Assembly (NCBI GenBank): GCA_965116885.1
Contig: OZ220741.1
Span: 3,296,001-3,360,000 of the forward strand
Source of the DNA: Candidatus Latescibacterota bacterium
GTDB lineage: Bacteria; Latescibacterota; UBA2968
DNA length: 64,000 bases
Reading direction: 5' to 3'
Of this stretch, positions 22,200 to 26,943 are shown in pieces (the first letter of the stretch is position 1; the number at the start of each line of letters is the position of its first letter). The notes under the pieces were generated by a model that did no database searches, was not told the origin of the DNA, and saw nothing but the letters and a program-made list of their open reading frames with translations. Position numbers and translations under genes: made by a program.

Positions 22200-22925
22200 A
22201 TGGGCGTAATGACAGATGAACAGAAGAAGCACTTTCGCGAAGCAGGATATCTGCTGGCGTCGGGTTTGATTCCCGAGCATGTGGTTCGCAAGGCTGAAGA
22301 CGCGATGTGGGCGGCGTTGGAAATGGACCGTGACGACTCTGAAACCTGGGGGCGTGTGTCCGTGCATGCGATCAATCGACAGCATCGTACATCGCCAGAA
22401 AATCGAATGTTGCGTTCGCCGGATATCCTGGCGTGTTATACAGATGATATTTTGATCGCGGTTTCTGAATTGACTGGTGTAGATCGCGAGGAGATCCACG
22501 CGCCGACACAGGTTATGACTCAGAACGCGTTTCCGACGGAAGGTGAATGGAGCCACTTGAAACCTCACTTGGATGGTGGATCCGATCCGGTAAAGTACAA
22601 TCGTCCGACGTTTCCCATTCCAATCCTGGTGCATTCAATTCTGTATCTGAGTGATACAGCACCGCACGGGGGATGCACGTTTGGATGGCCTGGTTCACAT
22701 CAAAAGCTTCAGGGTATTGCAGAGGACAACCCAGAGAAATATCCCTACTTGTGGGACGTGAATTCGGGTAAGGACACGGTAGATATTGGTGAAGGTGTGG
22801 AATTGGTGGCAAAGCGTGGCGACATTCTGTTTTACCAAAACTTTTTTTTGCATGCAGGAAGCAAGAATATCAATGACTATCCTCGGCTTGCATGTCGTAA
22901 TACATGGAAGTGGAATGCTGTATGA
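22200..22925 (+). CDS. PhyH-family Fe/2OG oxygenase
   Basis: FREAGYL, PHLDG, GGCTFGWPGSH, RGDILF...LHAGSKN...PRL. Confidence 0.88.
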   Translation: MGVMTDEQKKHFREAGYLLASGLIPEHVVRKAEDAMWAALEMDRDDSETWGRVSVHAINRQHRTSPENRMLRSPDILACYTDDILIAVSELTGVDREEIHAPTQVMTQNAFPTEGEWSHLKPHLDGGSDPVKYNRPTFPIPILVHSILYLSDTAPHGGCTFGWPGSHQKLQGIAEDNPEKYPYLWDVNSGKDTVDIGEGVELVAKRGDILFYQNFFLHAGSKNINDYPRLACRNTWKWNAV

Positions 22926-23010
22926 GCGAAACGAAGAGCAGACTGGATGTTGGAGATCTCGGCGAGGAAAACATGGAATCAGACGGCAAAATACGAGATG
23001 GTAAATTGGA

Positions 23011-23178
23011 ATGGAGGTTGATCCTGAAACATTGCAGCAGTTAGACGAGGTGGATATTCTGGTCCACTGTCTTTGGGAAATGACGTTTTGTGGTTTTGAG
23101 CAGGAGACCATTCAACAGGAATACAGGCAAATTCTCGATGCCTGGGAATCTGTTAAGAACTCAGATTTTTCAACTTGA
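23011..23178 (+). pseudogene. Short remnant resembling the C-terminus of DUF6557-like proteins
   Basis: Manual translation MEVDPETLQQLDEVDILVHCLWEMTFCGFEQETIQQEYRQILDAWESVKNSDFST*; no N-terminal part. Confidence 0.4.
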
Positions 23179-23240
23179 GCCGGAGTAACAAATGGAGATC
23201 AGATAGGACTCGGACTTTCGACAAATAATCTGTTCAAATT

Positions 23241-23278
23241 AGAAAATGCCGCGAGAAGAAATCTCACGGCATTTTTTC
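23241..23278. repeat. Palindromic element, copy B (inverted relative to A)
   Basis: AGAAAATGCCGCGAGAAGAAATCTCACGGCATTTTTTC. Confidence 0.7.
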
Positions 23279-23358
23279 GATTGTTTTTTTATAATTGTTT
23301 TTCTTTCTATTTGCCAAAAAATAACTATAATTCTCATTTAATAATCATTTTTCCGGGA

Positions 23359-23955
23359 ATGGAAGCCGATGCTGTCCCACCCGTGATTTAAGCTGCTGCC
23401 ATTGCCTATGGATTCGTCTTTCTACACCCTTTTGAGGATGGCAATGGTCGTATCCACCGCTTCTTGATCCACAATATTCTCGCTCGGCGAGGCTTTACAC
23501 CCGAAAGCGTTATGTTTCCCATATCGGCGGTCATGCTGAAGAATCCATCCGACTACGACGCTTCTCTGGATGCGTTCTCCCGACAACTCATGCCTCTGGT
23601 GGAATACACCCTGGAACAGGATGGGCGCTTGACTGTGCATAACGATACCGCGATATGGTACCGCTATATCGACCTGACCTCCCAGGCAGAGGCTCTGTTT
23701 CGGTTTATCGACCAGACCATTGATACCGAACTCGCCGACGAACTGGCCTTCCTGGCCAACTACGATGCGGCGAAACAAGCGATCCAATATACGGTAGATA
23801 TGCCCGATCGACAGATTGATCTTTTCATTCGTTTCTGTCTCCAAAACAACGGCCGCCTGTCCGCACGAAAACGCGCAAGCCAATTTGATCATCTGACAGA
23901 TGAAGAAGTTGATGCTATGGAACAGGCTGTGCAATTCCCTGAGAGGTCTGCTTGA
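23359..23955 (+). pseudogene. Fic-family protein remnant (5'-truncated, in-frame stop)
   Basis: MEADAVPPVI*AAAIAYGFVFLHPFEDGNGRIHRFLIH...; TAA at 23389-23391; frame continues into ORF 23464-23955 (DMPDRQIDLFIRFCLQNNGRLS). Confidence 0.85.
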
Positions 23956-24074
23956 CGATGATCAAGCGAAACGGGGTAACTCCATGGAACAGGCTGATTG
24001 AGGAGAACTTGCTACACTATCCACTCAAGCGGGAAACTCCAGGGAGTCGTCACATACTAAAGTGTCAAAAATAA

Positions 24075-24103
24075 TTGACACTATTTTTATATTCCTATAT
24101 ATT
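24075..24103 (+). promoter_or_regulatory. Consensus sigma70 promoter of the NYN locus
   Basis: TTGACA-17 bp-TATATT; the -35 lies in inverted repeat AGTGTCAA-N6-TTGACACT (24061-24082). Confidence 0.7.
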
Positions 24104-24109
24104 TTAAGC

Positions 24110-24250
24110 ATTGCCCTTTCAGACATTCAGTGCTGAAGCCCCCGGACTTGTTAGTGGACCCGGGTTGAATTTATAAATAATTAACCACCCCTGTTGCTTC
24201 GGGAGCAGGGCGCGAAGCCGTATAGAGTTCTATACGGCTTCTGCATTTTT
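24110..24250 (+). ncRNA. Putative structured leader or ncRNA (about 140 nt) ending in an intrinsic terminator
   Basis: Consecutive hairpins, including a cUUCGg tetraloop stem (24189-24210) and a perfect 12-bp stem GAAGCCGTATAG/CTATACGGCTTC followed by TGCATTTTT. Confidence 0.5.
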
Positions 24251-24259
24251 GGAGATTTA

Positions 24260-24922
24260 ATGAAAACAAATGTCTATATTGACGGGCTTAATCTATATTA
24301 CAGAGCCGTGCGAGGAACGCAGTATAAATGGCTGGATATAGATGCATTAGTCAAAAAAATGTGTCCCCAAAATACCATTTGCAAAATCAAGTATTTCACT
24401 TCGATTGTGAGTTCGCGTCCTAATGATCCCGGACAATCAACGCGGCAACAAATCTATCTACGGGCTTTACGTACTTTTCCGAACATTGAGATTATTAAAG
24501 GTCACTTTTTGACCAGCAAAGTCAGAATGCCACTGGTGACGCCTTCCCCCAAAGGACCAAATACTGCGGAAGTTTGGAGAACGGAAGAAAAAGGATCAGA
24601 TGTCAACCTTGCTGTTCACCTATTAAACGATGCTCATAACAAGGATTATGAGGTTGCTATTGTGGTATCAAACGACTCCGACTTAGGGGAGGCTATCCGC
24701 ATTGTGACTCAAGATATAAACTTGAAAGTAGGTGTTGTATTCCCTGCAGGTGCGATTGATCCGCGTACTGGCACCCGATATAAACTCCGCAAATCACAAA
24801 CGCTTCTAAAATATGCCTCGTTTATACGTCAAATTAGACCAGGTGTTCTCTCACTTAGTCAACTGCCTAATACATTGACTGATGCGAATGGCACTTTTCA
24901 CAGACCATCAGAATGGCAATAA
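24260..24922 (+). CDS. NYN domain (LabA/DUF88, PIN-like) ribonuclease
   Basis: VYIDGLNLYY, IKYFT, EEKGSDVNLA, VVSNDSDL acidic catalytic motifs; ATG 24260 after GGAG; AT-richer than core genes. Confidence 0.9.
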   Translation: MKTNVYIDGLNLYYRAVRGTQYKWLDIDALVKKMCPQNTICKIKYFTSIVSSRPNDPGQSTRQQIYLRALRTFPNIEIIKGHFLTSKVRMPLVTPSPKGPNTAEVWRTEEKGSDVNLAVHLLNDAHNKDYEVAIVVSNDSDLGEAIRIVTQDINLKVGVVFPAGAIDPRTGTRYKLRKSQTLLKYASFIRQIRPGVLSLSQLPNTLTDANGTFHRPSEWQ

Positions 24923-25073
24923 AGAAGTCCAATACAATGGAAGTAAAGCCTCCAACCTCTCGGCACTATTCTACATAATCCCTTAAATTTGATGAAATGG
25001 GTGGCGTGCTTAGGGCTTGCCCCTACTTCTCAGAGATATTGGCAAAAATTGCGGATTACCTCGAGTACACAAC

Positions 25074-25113
25074 AAAAGCCCGTCGATCATCACCGATTGA
25101 CGGGCTTTCTTTT
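25074..25113. terminator. Bidirectional intrinsic terminator between NYN and tRNA-Asn
   Basis: AAAAGCCCGTCGATC-loop-GATTGACGGGCTTTCTTTT. Confidence 0.75.
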
Positions 25114-25155
25114 ACTATGAAACAGATAGATTAAAATTCAGCGAGAAGATATTCT

Positions 25156-25231
25156 TGGCTCCGGCGGTAGGACTCGAACCTACGACCCAGTGGTTAACAG
25201 CCACTTGCTCTGCCAGCTGAGCTACGCCGGA
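25156..25231 (-). tRNA. tRNA-Asn(GTT)
   Basis: Reverse complement TCCGGCGTAGCTCAGCTGGCAGAGC...CTGTTAA...GGTTCGAGTCCTACCGCCGGAGCCA; cloverleaf with encoded CCA. Confidence 0.97.
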
Positions 25232-25416
25232 ACATAATATTTCCAATAGCGATGAAATCTACTGGAAGTGAATAGTAGTGTCAAGCGCAAATTTTAATCC
25301 TTTGATTTTGCAGCGTCTGAATATCAGGGCATTCCGCTTGACATCACTCTGGTGAACATCTATGTTTCCAGAGGTTAGCCCAACCATCCAACCTACCAGT
25401 CCCCAGCCTCTTGCCT

Positions 25417-26142
25417 ATGTCAGATGAAAAATTGATACAGCGGATTGTTGCCGAAGTTGTGCGGCGGTTGAAGGCGTTGGAGGGGGGCGCGGTATCTGCA
25501 CCGATTGATCCGCCAGTGAGTCTGGTGACGGAAGATCAGGTCAAATCTGCGATCAATCGCGGTGGCGATGTGGTTTATGTGACGCCCAATGCGATTGTGA
25601 CGCCGTTGGCGCGGGATTTGATTCGGCAGCAGAAAGTGCGTCTGCTGGTCGTGGCTGATGATGAGGCGGTGGTTCAGGAGCCGCAGAAATCGAGTGTATT
25701 AGCTATTGGTGCAGACCACAAGGGATTTGAACTTAAGAAACAGATTGTGCTTATGTTGCAAGATGCCGGGCGAGAGGTGATGGATTGTGGTGTGCATAGC
25801 CCGCAAGAGGCGTCTTATGTCGGTGTGGCAAAGACGGTGGCTGACGTTGTTCTGGAAAAGAATTTGATGACAGGGATTGTAGTTGATGGGGGAGGTACGG
25901 GGGCTGCTCTCGTTGCGAATAAGGTAAAGGGAATTCGCGCTGTTTCGTGTCACGATGTGACGTCGGCCAAATTTGCCCGCGCCCATGTGGATGCCAATAT
26001 TTTGTGTCTCGGTGTAGGCGTGGTGGGCGATACTGTGGCGAAAGAGATTGTTGCGACTTGGTTGAGTACCCCGTTTGAGGGTGGGCAATATGCGGCGCGT
26101 GTTCGAGAAATTGATGAAGTGGAGAGTGAGACCCGGGATTGA
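25417..26142 (+). CDS. RpiB/LacA/LacB sugar-phosphate isomerase with N-terminal extension
   Basis: IGADHKGFELK, ANKVKGIRA, ARAHVDANIL, WLSTPFEGG; about 95 extra N-terminal residues. Confidence 0.85.
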   Translation: MSDEKLIQRIVAEVVRRLKALEGGAVSAPIDPPVSLVTEDQVKSAINRGGDVVYVTPNAIVTPLARDLIRQQKVRLLVVADDEAVVQEPQKSSVLAIGADHKGFELKKQIVLMLQDAGREVMDCGVHSPQEASYVGVAKTVADVVLEKNLMTGIVVDGGGTGAALVANKVKGIRAVSCHDVTSAKFARAHVDANILCLGVGVVGDTVAKEIVATWLSTPFEGGQYAARVREIDEVESETRD

Positions 26143-26166
26143 GTTGAATGTTCTTTTAATAAGGGG

Positions 26167-26943
26167 ATGACTATGCTTTCACAGGAGCAACTGGCGCAAT
26201 ATGACCGGGATGGATATGTGCTGGTGTCGGGATTAATTCCAGAAGAGACAATTGCCAATGCAGAAGCTGCGATGTGGTCTGTGCTGGGGATGGATCGGGA
26301 TGATCCGGCTTCGTGGTCTCCTTTGCCAGACGAAACAGATGGGGTAAATACAATTGCCCGCCAGGGGGTGATTGAACATTTTGGGGTACGTGATCCCGCG
26401 TTGCTGGCTTGTTGTACGCCCGCATTTTACGAGGCGCAGAGCCAACTGGTTCGGGAGAATGCAGATGCCTTTCACTGTCAGAAGCCACAGCCCGAGGCTG
26501 TGTGGGCACGCAGTGTATTTCCGGTTTCGAAAGGTTGGAATTATCTCGGTGGGCACGTCGATGGCGGACATCGACCTTTTAATGTTTTTCCAGGTTCATT
26601 TCGGGTCTCCTCTCTGACTTATCTCGATTCTGGTGTTGCGCAAGGTGGTGGGACCGCGGTCTGGCCGGGGACACATCGGAAGTTCAGCGAGATGGCAGTG
26701 AAGGATCCTGACCAGTATCGAATGCTGTCGGATTTTGCGAAGCCGCAACAAAGGTTCGGTCTGGGAGAGCCGATTGAGTTGAGGCCGTCCCGAGGGGATG
26801 TCATGTTTTTTCATTATCTGTTAGTACACTGTGGATCCCTCAATACGAGTAATAAACCGCGTTTTGCCCTCCGGTGGATGTGTGCCTGTGACGCATGTCG
26901 CATCTGGGAAAAGTATGGCAAGTGGAATATCTGGATGCCCTGA
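26167..26943 (+). CDS. PhyH-family Fe/2OG oxygenase
   Basis: YDRDGYVLV, HVDG, GGGTAVWPGTH, RGDVMFFHYLLVHCGSLN...PRFA; similar to 22200-22925. Confidence 0.88.
   Translation: MTMLSQEQLAQYDRDGYVLVSGLIPEETIANAEAAMWSVLGMDRDDPASWSPLPDETDGVNTIARQGVIEHFGVRDPALLACCTPAFYEAQSQLVRENADAFHCQKPQPEAVWARSVFPVSKGWNYLGGHVDGGHRPFNVFPGSFRVSSLTYLDSGVAQGGGTAVWPGTHRKFSEMAVKDPDQYRMLSDFAKPQQRFGLGEPIELRPSRGDVMFFHYLLVHCGSLNTSNKPRFALRWMCACDACRIWEKYGKWNIWMP

What the first reader, a model, noticed from the sequence alone, without database searches (positions are those of the whole stretch)
24061..24922. Candidate RNA-controlled RNase system: promoter, structured 140-nt RNA, terminator, NYN nuclease
Seen: a consensus promoter (TTGACA-17-TATATT, within an 8-bp inverted repeat) is followed by a GC-rich, hairpin-dense tract in AT-rich DNA. 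The hairpins are TTCAGAC/GTGCTGAA, CCCGG/CCGGG, GGTT(G)AATT/AATTAACC, CCCTGTTGC-TTCG-GGAGCAGGG, and a perfect 12-bp stem (24214-24241) with a T-tract ending right at the RBS of an intact stand-alone NYN/PIN-like RNase. TGCTGAAGCC (24131-24140) can alternatively pair 9/10 with the 3' arm GGCTTCTGCA (24236-24245), giving a possible terminator/antiterminator switch. Known: promoter-RNA antitoxin-terminator-RNase is the layout of type III TA systems (ToxIN, CptIN, TenpIN), and AbiF also pairs an RNase with an upstream ncRNA. I know of no such system built on a NYN domain. The location in a tRNA-adjacent hotspot with Fic and AbiEi remnants fits defence. Inference: the RNA is an antitoxin, partner RNA or attenuator of the NYN RNase. 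Unlike ToxI, it has no tandem repeats.
Basis: partly seen in the sequence, partly recalled or inferred. Interest (0 to 1): 0.8.

Follow-up and report, generated by a model that had tools for sequence, protein, structure and literature searches.

The report
Small RNA partner of NYN nuclease
A short two-hairpin RNA gene sits beside this RNA-cutting enzyme gene in bacteria of many phyla, which suggests an undescribed RNA-and-nuclease pair that may work like an RNA antidote with its toxin.

Summary
The promoter, hairpins, terminator and intact NYN gene (ATG 24260, not TTG 24194) are all there. Only the last two hairpins matter. The core 24182-24250 (P1 with a UUCG loop, one linker base, P2 terminator with a bulged U) folds far better than shuffles. 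It covaries strongly and lies within about 110 nt of 84 of 85 NYN homologues in at least a dozen phyla.

It always has its own promoter, but its position varies: upstream on the same strand (65), upstream divergent (4), or downstream convergent (15, all Actinomycetota). So it is a separate small-RNA gene, not just a leader.

The three 5' hairpins fold no better than chance and occur only in close relatives. The proposed antiterminator pairing is not conserved.

The protein is PADLOC's HEC-09, a candidate defence nuclease. About 40% of related loci sit among defence genes. Homologues with a matching or weaker variant hairpin pair occur on small E. coli plasmids and in a mycobacterial prophage.

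The RNA often survives loss of NYN; NYN almost never lacks the RNA. Rfam 15 and my paper searches show no description. Earlier notes of this scan reported NYN-plus-small-RNA pairs on other DNA.

Best reading: a type III-like RNA antitoxin with an NYN toxin. This is inferred, not shown.

The parts
24059..24940 (+). Roughly 880-bp cassette (inverted repeat and promoter, RNA, NYN gene) shared with close relatives in unrelated flanking DNA
   Evidence: blastn of window 22500-26500 against 22 related loci. The homology block starts at 24054-24061 in L006, L007, L013, L106, L107 and L114 (24032 in L005). It ends at 24927-24988.
24061..24082 (.). 8-bp perfect inverted repeat AGTGTCAA / TTGACACT overlapping the -35 box, at the cassette's left edge
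   Evidence: A similar TGTCAA-N3-10-TTGACA palindrome is seen by eye at L012, L046, L087 and L044 (listing).
24075..24103 (+). Sigma-70-like promoter TTGACA-17-TATATT; predicted start near 24110
   Evidence: 11 of 12 consensus positions. This is a pattern match only; the transcription start was not measured.
24105..24181 (+).
   Evidence: Fold z -0.03. Direct repeat. Present in L005-L007, L013 and partly L115. Absent in L008, L018, L022, L109, L116 and all other phyla.
24182..24250 (+). Conserved NYN-associated small RNA core (covariance-model match)
   Evidence: 65.9 bits, E 1.2e-17. It is the only copy in the genome. Fold -34.2 kcal/mol, z -5.56.
24189..24210 (+). P1 hairpin: 9 pair positions (one G.G mismatch in this window) closed by a UUCG loop (24198-24201)
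   Evidence: 7 of 9 pairs show changes on both sides. The U-C-G of the loop is invariant in 39 sequences.
24212..24244 (+). P2 hairpin and intrinsic terminator stem. Its base is GCG-A...U-C(U)GC, with bulged U 24242
   Evidence: 10 of 12 pairs show changes on both sides and 97.6% of cells are paired. G30, C31 and G61 are invariant and T60 is at least 90% conserved.
24246..24250 (+). U-tract of the terminator
24251..24254 (+). GGAG ribosome-binding site, 1 nt after the U-tract
24260..24922 (+). NYN nuclease gene (220 aa), HEC-09 type, with catalytic aspartates intact
   Evidence: PF01936 E 1.7e-9. PADLOC HEC-09 E 8.5e-38 over the full length. D8, D114, D139 and D141 are invariant in 22 sequences. 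AF2 pLDDT 92.5; best fold matches are 2qip and the MARF1 NYN domain.
23392..23955 (+). 5'-truncated Fic-domain remnant (motif HPFEDGNGR), context only
   Evidence: Stop-to-stop ORF. PADLOC PDC-S24 E 3.1e-56, matching only profile positions 331-486 of 497.
25156..25231 (-). tRNA-Asn(GTT), context only

Best explanation
Window 24182-24250 encodes the conserved core of a small RNA that is the constant genetic partner of the HEC-09-type NYN ribonuclease encoded at 24260-24922.

Shown. The RNA has its own promoter. It has a short C-rich 5' tail, hairpin P1 with a UUCG loop, one linker base, and hairpin P2. P2 is an intrinsic terminator whose base (GCG-A...U-C-bulged U-GC) is conserved in sequence. 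In most phyla, including here, the NYN gene follows within 1-51 nt, with no room for a promoter of its own.

Inferred. In that layout NYN can only be expressed by read-through of P2. The cell therefore makes much RNA and little nuclease. The RNA binds the nuclease in trans, and also in cis on the read-through mRNA, and keeps it inactive. This is how type III antitoxin RNAs and the AbiF ncRNA work. When RNA supply stops (transcription shut-off by a phage, or loss of the plasmid or cassette), free NYN cleaves cellular or invader RNA.

In this window a roughly 95-nt insertion has pushed the promoter upstream, so the RNA is probably about 140 nt with the conserved core at its 3' end.
For: Structure.
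- On 39 sequences from many phyla, 94.2% of cells are paired against 75.4% in shuffles.
- 17 of 21 pairs carry double changes (141 cells), matched by 0 of 500 shuffles. Slid controls pair at 40-52%.
- G.U cells number 75 against 4 A.C cells of 813, so the fold belongs to the strand that carries the promoter and the U-tail.

Linkage.
- The covariance model finds the RNA within about 110 nt of NYN in 84 of 85 loci with a near-full-length NYN. The exception, L088, ends 23 nt after the gene.
- In 98 genomes of the taxonomic class of genome G104 (record title: Chloroflexota), 83 of 112 full-length NYN genes had a listed RNA upstream. Of 20 of the 29 others rechecked without filters, 15 had a clear match, 2 a weak one, 1 was cut by a contig end and 2 had none.

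Independent gene.
- There are three arrangements: 65 upstream on the same strand, 4 upstream divergent, and 15 downstream convergent, all Actinomycetota.
- 41 of 82 loci have a -35/-10 match of at least 9 of 12. In 31 of those 41 the -10 box ends 4-7 nt before the RNA's 5' AUAUCC.
- No neighbouring protein is conserved. The largest flanking cluster covers 5 loci.

Asymmetry.
- In that class, 8 genomes have the RNA but no NYN, and 1 has NYN but no RNA (G131, a partial gene).
- Of 150 RNA hits, 14 lie by broken NYN genes and 42 have no NYN nearby.
- In the window's own genus, NYN is deleted or cut by an IS element while the RNA stays intact (L105-L108, L110, L114).

Context.
- The protein matches HEC-09.
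- 43 of 150 flanking ORFs match defence families. NYN sits between HmaA and HmaB, PglX and PglZ, BrxC and PglX, and type I R-M subunits.
- 452 plasmid records carry homologues, including 3.4-4.6 kb E. coli plasmids. The 3.4-kb E. coli plasmid has a matching hairpin pair (25.6 bits, E 2.2e-6). The 4.6-kb one has only a weaker variant (21.4 bits) that lacks the conserved P2 base.
- A mycobacterial prophage copy lies next to the immunity repressor.

Precedents.
- The AbiF ncRNA RCd22 neutralises its toxin in cis and in trans (bioRxiv 10.1101/2025.04.15.648962, abstract only).
- A bacterial stand-alone NYN is a non-specific Mn-dependent ssRNA endonuclease, which a hairpin RNA would resist (bioRxiv 10.1101/2024.04.08.588522, abstract only).
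Against: - No toxicity, binding or RNA-end data exist for this family.
- HEC-09 gave no protection against any phage tested (bioRxiv 10.1101/2024.01.29.577857, passages read).
- The asymmetry 'NYN never without RNA' fits an obligatory cofactor RNA equally well. The excess of broken NYN over broken RNA is about what their sizes predict (roughly 620 nt against 100 nt).
- 42 of 150 RNA copies in that class are orphans. Some sit at a conserved housekeeping locus next to hflX, so the RNA may have a role beyond NYN.
- Known type III antitoxins are tandem repeat arrays processed by their toxin. Here there is a single unit.
- Metatranscriptome contigs could not resolve any RNA end.
Confidence: 0.45

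Rival explanations
1. The RNA is a positive subunit of a ribonucleoprotein: a scaffold, activator or targeting RNA that NYN needs in order to act. It is not an inhibitor.
For: - The same near-obligate linkage and the same 'NYN never without RNA' asymmetry apply.
- The RNA keeps conserved sequence at the 5' C-rich tail, the UUCG loop and the bulged-U base of P2, as expected for a specific protein-RNA interface.
- Orphan and tandem copies could raise RNA supply.
- From my own knowledge, other RNA-protein systems such as retron ncRNA and the IscB omega-RNA also encode the RNA upstream of the protein.
Against: - Almost all variable positions are base-paired, so there is no obvious guide segment.
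- The 5' tail shows no cognate-specific complementarity to the NYN translation start: -3.9 kcal/mol cognate, -4.1 non-cognate, -3.4 shuffled.
- The layout promoter, RNA, terminator, nuclease is the type III / AbiF layout.
- RNA copies with intact promoters persist after NYN loss (L108, L110, L114, L139, L151). That is harder to explain for a cofactor, although recent loss cannot be excluded.
Confidence: 0.2
2. The hairpins act only in cis, as a 5' leader. P1 stabilises the mRNA and P2 attenuates transcription and masks the ribosome-binding site, perhaps with NYN binding or cutting its own leader as feedback. No trans-acting RNA exists.
For: - In 65 of 84 loci the element lies directly upstream, with only 1-51 nt between P2 and the start codon.
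- In this window the RBS begins 1 nt after the U-tract, so P2 must throttle NYN expression.
- Ribonuclease genes with autoregulatory leaders are known, for example rne and rnc (my own knowledge).
Against: - 19 of 84 loci place the element on the other strand, divergent or convergent, where it cannot be the NYN leader. Sequence, structure and promoter spacing are nevertheless retained.
- All 15 Actinomycetota loci, plus a Paenarthrobacter plasmid and a mycobacterial prophage, have the convergent form.
- Orphan copies have their own promoters.
- No conserved alternative (antiterminator) pairing exists. The core fold takes 72% of the ensemble.
Confidence: 0.12
3. One reading: 24131-24140 pairs with 24236-24245 to open the terminator, giving a regulated 140-nt riboregulator.
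For: The two segments are 9-of-10 complementary. The consensus promoter makes a roughly 140-nt transcript plausible in this strain.
Against: - The 5' partner lies in a segment that folds no better than chance (z -0.03).
- That segment is bracketed by an 11-nt direct repeat.
- It is missing from L008, L018, L022, L109, L116 and from all other phyla.
- Contigs of relatives in runs X1 and X2 read C and A at 24131 and 24132, with no change listed at 24236-24245. Depth is low, so the contigs may contain errors.
Confidence: 0.03
4. The two hairpins are a DNA-level site, such as a recombination or insertion site at the end of a mobile cassette (as attC is for integron cassettes), and not an RNA.
For: - The element lies at an end of the roughly 880-bp cassette, which moves between contexts.
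- It sits at the left end in most phyla and at the right end in Actinomycetota.
- It has a conserved bulged base, as attC hairpins do (my own knowledge).
Against: - G.U cells outnumber A.C cells 75 to 4.
- A sigma-70 promoter lies at a fixed distance and a U-tail sits on the same strand.
- The cassette's left boundary lies upstream of the promoter, not at the hairpins.
- No integrase is conserved nearby.
- By eye there are no attC core sites (GTTRRRY / RYYYAAC, a motif recalled from memory).
Confidence: 0.03

Closest known systems
Type III toxin-antitoxin systems (ToxIN, CptIN, TenpIN)
   Same: The layout is one promoter, a non-coding RNA, an intrinsic terminator, then an endoribonuclease gene that depends on read-through. 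They occur on plasmids and in defence islands. The RNA partner can exist without the toxin. Some relatives here carry two tandem RNA units.
   Different: The nuclease is NYN/PIN-like (PF01936), not ToxN/AbiQ-like. The RNA is a single two-hairpin unit, not a repeat array. In 19 of 84 loci the RNA is a separate transcription unit on the other strand. Inhibition and processing by the nuclease are untested. The description of the ToxIN family comes from my own knowledge.
AbiF (Abi_2/HEPN) toxin with its ncRNA RCd22 / abiF RNA motif (bioRxiv 10.1101/2025.04.15.648962, abstract read)
   Same: A structured ncRNA lies upstream of an RNase-type toxin in a prophage or defence context. That RNA is reported to neutralise the toxin in cis and in trans by direct binding, which is the behaviour proposed here.
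   Different: The protein fold differs (HEPN against NYN). The RNA is different: no Rfam family, the abiF motif included, matched the window or 18 related loci at E<=1.
HEC-09, Hma-embedded candidate defence gene (PADLOC PDLC04163; bioRxiv 10.1101/2024.01.29.577857, passages read)
   Same: It is the same protein family, with a full-length HMM match at E 8.5e-38. Relatives here are embedded in Hma, BREX and type I R-M systems.
   Different: In the passages I read, the paper treats HEC-09 as a single protein, mentions no RNA, and found no protection against the phages tested. This window's copy lies beside a Fic remnant and a tRNA gene, not inside Hma.
Eukaryotic NYN/PIN-like RNases that act on stem-loops (Regnase-1, MARF1)
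   Same: The catalytic fold is the same: Foldseek matches MARF1 NYN 5yaa and 6fdl at probability 1.0. From my own knowledge, Regnase-1 also targets stem-loops, including one in its own mRNA.
   Different: Sequence identity is only 9-11%. There is no dedicated partner RNA gene. The bacterial protein has an extra beta-hairpin and a C-terminal extension.

Membership tests
NYN domain nucleases (Pfam PF01936) | Match to the family HMM above the curated cut-off | tested here: met
   38.8 bits against a cut-off of 24.2, E 1.7e-9.
NYN domain nucleases (Pfam PF01936) | Conserved acidic active-site residues and the NYN/PIN-like fold | tested here: met
   D8, D114, D139 and D141 are invariant in 22 homologues. 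AF2 pLDDT is 92.5. The best PDB matches are 2qip and the MARF1 NYN domain.
HEC-09 (PADLOC candidate defence system) | Full-length match to the PADLOC HEC-09 model | tested here: met
   E 8.5e-38, residues 4-220 aligned to profile positions 5-203 of 203.
HEC-09 (PADLOC candidate defence system) | Anti-phage activity | not testable with these tools
   The describing preprint reports no protection against the phages it tested.
Type III toxin-antitoxin systems | Toxin of the ToxN/AbiQ endoribonuclease family | tested here: not met
   The only Pfam family hit is NYN. The fold matches are NYN domains.
Type III toxin-antitoxin systems | Antitoxin encoded as tandem direct repeats upstream of the toxin | tested here: not met
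   There are no tandem repeats in 23950-24300, so this window has a single unit. Some relatives have two units, each with its own promoter.
Type III toxin-antitoxin systems | Intrinsic terminator between the RNA and the toxin gene | tested here: met
   P2 plus the U-tract ends 9 nt before the ATG. This holds in 65 of 84 loci.
Type III toxin-antitoxin systems | The RNA binds and neutralises the protein toxin; the toxin is growth-inhibitory alone | not testable with these tools
   No experiment is available. Only indirect genomic asymmetry bears on it.
AbiF / abiF RNA motif systems | Abi_2/HEPN protein and the abiF RNA motif | tested here: not met
   Pfam gives NYN only. Rfam 15 scans at E<=1 give no hit at the element in the window or in 18 loci.
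Riboswitch or transcription attenuator | Conserved mutually exclusive terminator and antiterminator structures in a cis leader | tested here: not met
   The only candidate alternative pairing lies in a non-conserved insert. The element works on the other strand in 19 of 84 loci.
Any described RNA family (Rfam 15) | Covariance-model match | tested here: not met
   No match overlaps 24061-24260 at E<=1. None falls at the element in 18 other loci, apart from one chance-level Moco-riboswitch hit in L036 (22.4 bits against a gathering score of 36, E 0.7).

The most novel reading that the evidence does not exclude
The RNA is not an antidote but the working partner of NYN. In this reading it forms a compact ribonucleoprotein in which the two stacked hairpins dock on the nuclease. 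The conserved C-rich 5' tail, which resembles an anti-Shine-Dalgarno sequence, then steers or licenses cleavage of particular RNAs, such as G-rich ribosome-binding sites of invader or host messages. This would be a very widespread RNA-dependent nuclease system, embedded in defence islands and carried on small plasmids.
Probability: 0.15. Interest if true: 0.9.

Novelty: new variant of a known kind. Interest (0 to 1): 0.8.

Why it matters
If the inference holds, this is a new and very large family of RNA-protein toxin-antitoxin or defence modules built on a nuclease fold (NYN) not previously tied to an RNA partner. More than 7,800 protein homologues were scored. It was found in 68 of 98 genomes of one sampled class (record titles: Chloroflexota) and on 452 plasmid records.

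It would explain why HEC-09 looked inert when tested as a single protein, and it supplies the missing component to test.

The RNA itself is a strongly covarying, phylogenetically broad family that is absent from Rfam 15 and worth curating.

Members with a matching hairpin pair sit on 3.4-kb E. coli plasmids (the 4.6-kb ones carry a weaker variant), so the question can be tested directly in a laboratory strain.

Tried and rejected
- Rfam 15, E-value mode. Nothing overlaps the element in the window or in 18 related loci.
- PDB sequence search with the family profile gave no hit at E<=1. The fold search was needed instead.
- NCBIfam gave no family for the NYN protein or the Fic remnant.
- Antisense idea: the C-rich 5' tail pairs with the NYN ribosome-binding site. 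Duplex energies were -3.9 (cognate), -4.1 (non-cognate) and -3.4 kcal/mol (shuffled) over 78 loci, so it is rejected. Start positions came from tblastn and may be slightly off.
- Expression. One search for runs and one lay on four metatranscriptome runs, all held as contigs.
  - Low-depth contigs (2-9x) of close relatives cover 24058-24284 and parts of NYN.
  - One X1 contig spans 24064-24284, across the terminator.
  - Contigs cannot show starts, ends or strand, and may come from DNA in the library. This is therefore no evidence for or against a discrete RNA.
- The 5' extension as a structured RNA: z -0.03, rejected.
- Tandem repeats: none.
- A conserved third protein gene: none. The largest flank cluster covers 5 loci, and two larger clusters were shadow ORFs inside NYN.
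- An orphan RNA paired with another effector. The conserved ORF beside the orphan copies in L157 and L160 has no Pfam family, and the downstream gene is hflX. No alternative partner was found.
- Scan-notes look-up by protein sequence found nothing.
- Paper searches that found no description of an NYN-linked RNA.
Full report
**1. What is in the window**

- A sigma-70-type promoter, TTGACA-17-TATATT, lies at 24075-24103 and matches 11 of 12 consensus positions.
- It sits in a perfect 8-bp inverted repeat, 24061-24068 / 24075-24082.
- A perfect 13-bp inverted repeat (24214-24226 / 24229-24241) followed by a T-run was flagged as terminator-like.
- GGAG follows at 24251 and ATG at 24260.

The ORF from ATG 24260 to 24922 (220 aa) matches Pfam NYN (PF01936, E 1.7e-9). 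The alternative TTG 24194 start can be dismissed. The listed homologues are mostly 203-222 aa, and most begin with MKT or a near variant followed by a conserved Y-[IV]-D-G. The few longer calls read through the hairpins.

**2. Which part is more than chance**

- Folded alone, 24182-24250 gives two hairpins at -34.2 kcal/mol. The z-score is -5.56, 0 of 200 shuffles fold as well, and this fold takes 72% of the ensemble.
- That upstream piece is bracketed by an 11-nt direct repeat, 24069-24079 / 24175-24185.
- It is present only in the closest relatives (L005-L007, L013, partly L115).
- It is missing from same-genus loci L008, L018, L109 and L116, from L022, and from every other phylum.

It therefore looks like a roughly 95-nt insertion that displaced the promoter. 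In this strain the RNA is probably about 140 nt, but only its last roughly 65 nt are the conserved entity.

**3. Comparative evidence for the core**

I collected 94 loci encoding relatives of the protein. Upstream of homologues only 47-56% identical, the same layout recurs. These come from Acidobacteriota, Chloroflexota, Gemmatimonadota, Verrucomicrobiota, Armatimonadota, several Proteobacteria, Deinococcota and others. The layout is:
- a promoter;
- 5' AUAUCCCCCC;
- hairpin P1 with a UUCG loop;
- one pyrimidine;
- hairpin P2 with the base GCG-A...U-C-(bulged U)-GC;
- a U-tail;
- then the start codon.

An alignment of 39 copies supports both helices.
- 94.2% of cells are paired, against 75.4% in column shuffles.
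- 17 of 21 pairs have changes on both sides (141 cells).
- 0 of 500 shuffles reach any of the five measures.
- Partners slid by 1-3 columns pair at only 40-52%.
- G.U cells outnumber A.C cells 75 to 4 of 813. The fold therefore belongs to the strand that carries the promoter and the U-tail, meaning it is an RNA.

Invariant positions are the U-C-G of the loop, a G of P1, and G-C / G at the base of P2. The bulged U is at least 90% conserved.

**4. Linkage to NYN**

A covariance model built from this alignment found 92 matches at E<=1 in the window plus 94 loci.

I first set aside nine loci that had only partial protein matches or lay at contig edges (L009, L010, L013, L015, L018-L021, L055). Among the remaining 85 loci with near-full-length NYN, 84 have the RNA within about 110 nt. 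The exception, L088, ends 23 nt after the gene.

The window's genome has exactly one copy.

A second, independent sample gave the same picture. I used 98 genomes of the taxonomic class of genome G104, whose record title reads Chloroflexota.
- The RNA is in 68 genomes and NYN in 61.
- Of 112 full-length NYN matches, 83 had a listed RNA upstream on the same strand, 16 of them with two tandem copies.
- That search used strict filters and left 23 matches unlisted. I therefore refetched 20 of the 29 apparent exceptions and searched them without filters. The result was 15 clear matches, 2 weak, 1 cut by a contig end and 2 with none. Nine were not rechecked.

**5. It is a gene of its own, not only a leader**

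The RNA takes three positions relative to NYN:
- upstream on the same strand, 65 loci, with a gap of 1-51 nt to the start codon;
- upstream divergent, 4 loci, Acidobacteriota;
- immediately downstream and convergent, 15 loci, all Actinomycetota. A Paenarthrobacter plasmid and a Mycobacterium abscessus prophage show the same form.

Promoter evidence: 41 of 82 loci have a -35/-10 match of at least 9 of 12. In 31 of those 41 the -10 box ends 4-7 nt before the 5' AUAUCC, most often 6 nt. My filter missed further TATAAA-type boxes.

No neighbouring protein gene is conserved. Besides NYN and two clusters of shadow ORFs inside it, the largest flank cluster covers 5 loci. The unit is therefore the RNA plus NYN.

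**6. Turnover and asymmetry**

In the window's phylum the RNA is patchy: 15 of 101 genomes, counting the window's own, and 12 of 19 other genomes of its genus.

Of the 22 model hits there:
- 14 lie beside NYN, three of which are broken (a 5' deletion in L105, IS insertions in L106 and L107);
- 8 have no NYN;
- among those 8, L110 and L114 have NYN removed exactly after the terminator, and L108 is an orphan copy with its own promoter and a compensatory change in P2.

In the class sample, 94 of 150 listed RNA hits lie by an intact NYN, 14 by a broken one, and 42 by none. Eight genomes have the RNA without NYN. One has NYN without the RNA, and that NYN (G131) is a partial gene.

This is the pattern of an antidote and a poison. 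It is equally what an obligatory cofactor would give. The excess of broken NYN is also about what the sizes of the two targets predict. I therefore do not treat it as decisive.

**7. Context**

- The protein matches PADLOC's HEC-09 over its full length (E 8.5e-38).
- The describing preprint (bioRxiv 10.1101/2024.01.29.577857, passages read) presents HEC-09 as an NYN protein embedded in Hma systems. It gave no protection against the phages tested, and the passages mention no RNA.
- I took 167 non-overlapping flank ORFs of at least 170 aa from 81 loci and scanned the 150 longest. 43 matched a defence family at E<=1e-5. Some of these are generic domains.
- NYN sits between HmaA and HmaB (L033), PglX and PglZ (L026), BrxC and PglX (L028), and type I R-M subunits (L011, L089).
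- In the window, the left neighbour is a 5'-truncated Fic-domain gene (motif HPFEDGNGR; PDC-S24 profile positions 331-486 of 497). tRNA-Asn lies to the right.
- The roughly 880-bp block 24059-24940 recurs in relatives with unrelated flanks, so it moves as a cassette.
- Homologues lie on 452 plasmid records, including 3.4-4.6 kb plasmids of E. coli and Klebsiella, but in only 3 phage records.
- The 3.4-kb E. coli plasmid has the hairpin pair directly upstream (25.6 bits, E 2.2e-6). It also has a weak second copy in tandem (10.5 bits, E 0.11, which is not significant on its own).

**8. How it most likely works**

Shown:
- an independently promoted, terminator-ended, covarying small RNA is bound genetically to an intact NYN nuclease;
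- in the common layout NYN has no room for a promoter of its own.

Inferred:
- NYN is made only by read-through of P2, and P2 abuts the ribosome-binding site, so RNA greatly exceeds protein;
- the RNA docks on NYN through the conserved P1/P2 junction and bulged base and holds it inactive, both in trans and on the read-through mRNA;
- when transcription stops or the cassette is lost, the nuclease is freed.

Two precedents fit this reading. The AbiF ncRNA RCd22 neutralises its toxin in cis and in trans (abstract). A stand-alone bacterial NYN is a non-specific, Mn-dependent single-strand RNase (abstract), which a hairpin RNA would resist.

I put this reading at about 0.45. The rivals are:
- the RNA as a required subunit, 0.2;
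- a purely cis-acting leader, 0.12, weakened by the 19 loci on the other strand;
- a DNA-level recombination site, 0.03.

**9. The proposed switch**

24131-24140 and 24236-24245 are indeed 9-of-10 complementary. But the 5' partner lies in the non-conserved insert. Contigs of relatives in two runs read other bases at 24131 and 24132, with no change listed in the 3' partner (depth is low, so these may be errors). No conserved alternative to P1 and P2 exists.

**10. Comparison and novelty**

The module works like a type III toxin-antitoxin system or AbiF-ncRNA system, but it is a member of neither. The toxin fold test and the repeat-array test both fail, and Rfam finds no known motif. It is a member of HEC-09.

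My searches found no paper that links an NYN protein to a partner RNA.

Earlier notes of this scan reported an NYN gene with a conserved small RNA or leader hairpin on other DNA (e1-855798, e1-1026821, e1-1278124, e1-146658). I did not test those on their own DNA, but my results agree with them.

I class this as a new variant of a known kind: RNA-neutralised RNase modules.

Noticed in passing
L009 and L010 (the same genomes as L107 and L106); window equivalent 24513-24521: In two relatives the NYN gene is interrupted at the same 9-bp site, which is duplicated on both sides. The inserts are about 1.2 kb and encode two different transposase-like ORFs (370 aa and 358 aa). The upstream RNA is intact in both.
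   Followed up: partly
window 24069-24079 and 24175-24185: An 11-nt direct repeat (10 of 11 bases identical) brackets the lineage-specific 5' extension. This suggests a roughly 95-nt insertion that created or brought in the consensus promoter. No other copy of the insert exists in this genome.
   Followed up: partly
window 23974-23988 and 24031-24045; also L005 and loose ends of contigs in runs X1 and X2: A 15-nt direct repeat (GGGTAACTCCATGGA / GGGAAACTCCAGGGA) lies just left of the cassette. A similar GGGTAACT(C/T)CA string abuts the cassette's left end in other strains. It may be an insertion-site signature.
   Followed up: no
L112, L117, L119, L120 (same genus as the window): A variant RNA has the same P1 as the window but a different P2, whose base is UC-AAGAG... 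with a bulged A. A near-copy of the P2 3' arm follows just downstream. Only L119 is near an NYN gene, a 58%-identical paralogue about 180 nt away. The other three are orphans.
   Followed up: partly
L157 and L160 (class sample; record titles Chloroflexota): Orphan RNA copies with good promoters sit at what looks like a conserved locus. They lie between an unknown 227-256-aa protein with no Pfam family and, in L160, hflX. Twelve related genomes (G185, G186, G188-G190, G192, G194, G197-G201) each have one RNA hit near NYN and one with none.
   Followed up: partly
L161 1300-1492; L091 about 1351-1469; L121 292-400: Two tandem RNA units lie in front of one NYN gene. In L161 each unit has its own promoter and the two differ by compensatory changes in P1. 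This occurred in 16 of 83 RNA-linked NYN loci in the class sample. The upstream L121 unit is only a weak match (10.5 bits, E 0.11).
   Followed up: partly
window 22200-22925 and 26167-26943: Two paralogous PhyH-like dioxygenase genes with similar N-termini flank the small island. The island holds the Fic remnant, the NYN cassette, tRNA-Asn and an rpiB-like gene.
   Followed up: no
L121 (E. coli 3,461-bp plasmid): This tiny plasmid is annotated with only three genes: NYN, a VbhA-family (Fic-type) antitoxin and an HTH protein. The window's NYN cassette also lies next to a Fic-domain remnant.
   Followed up: no
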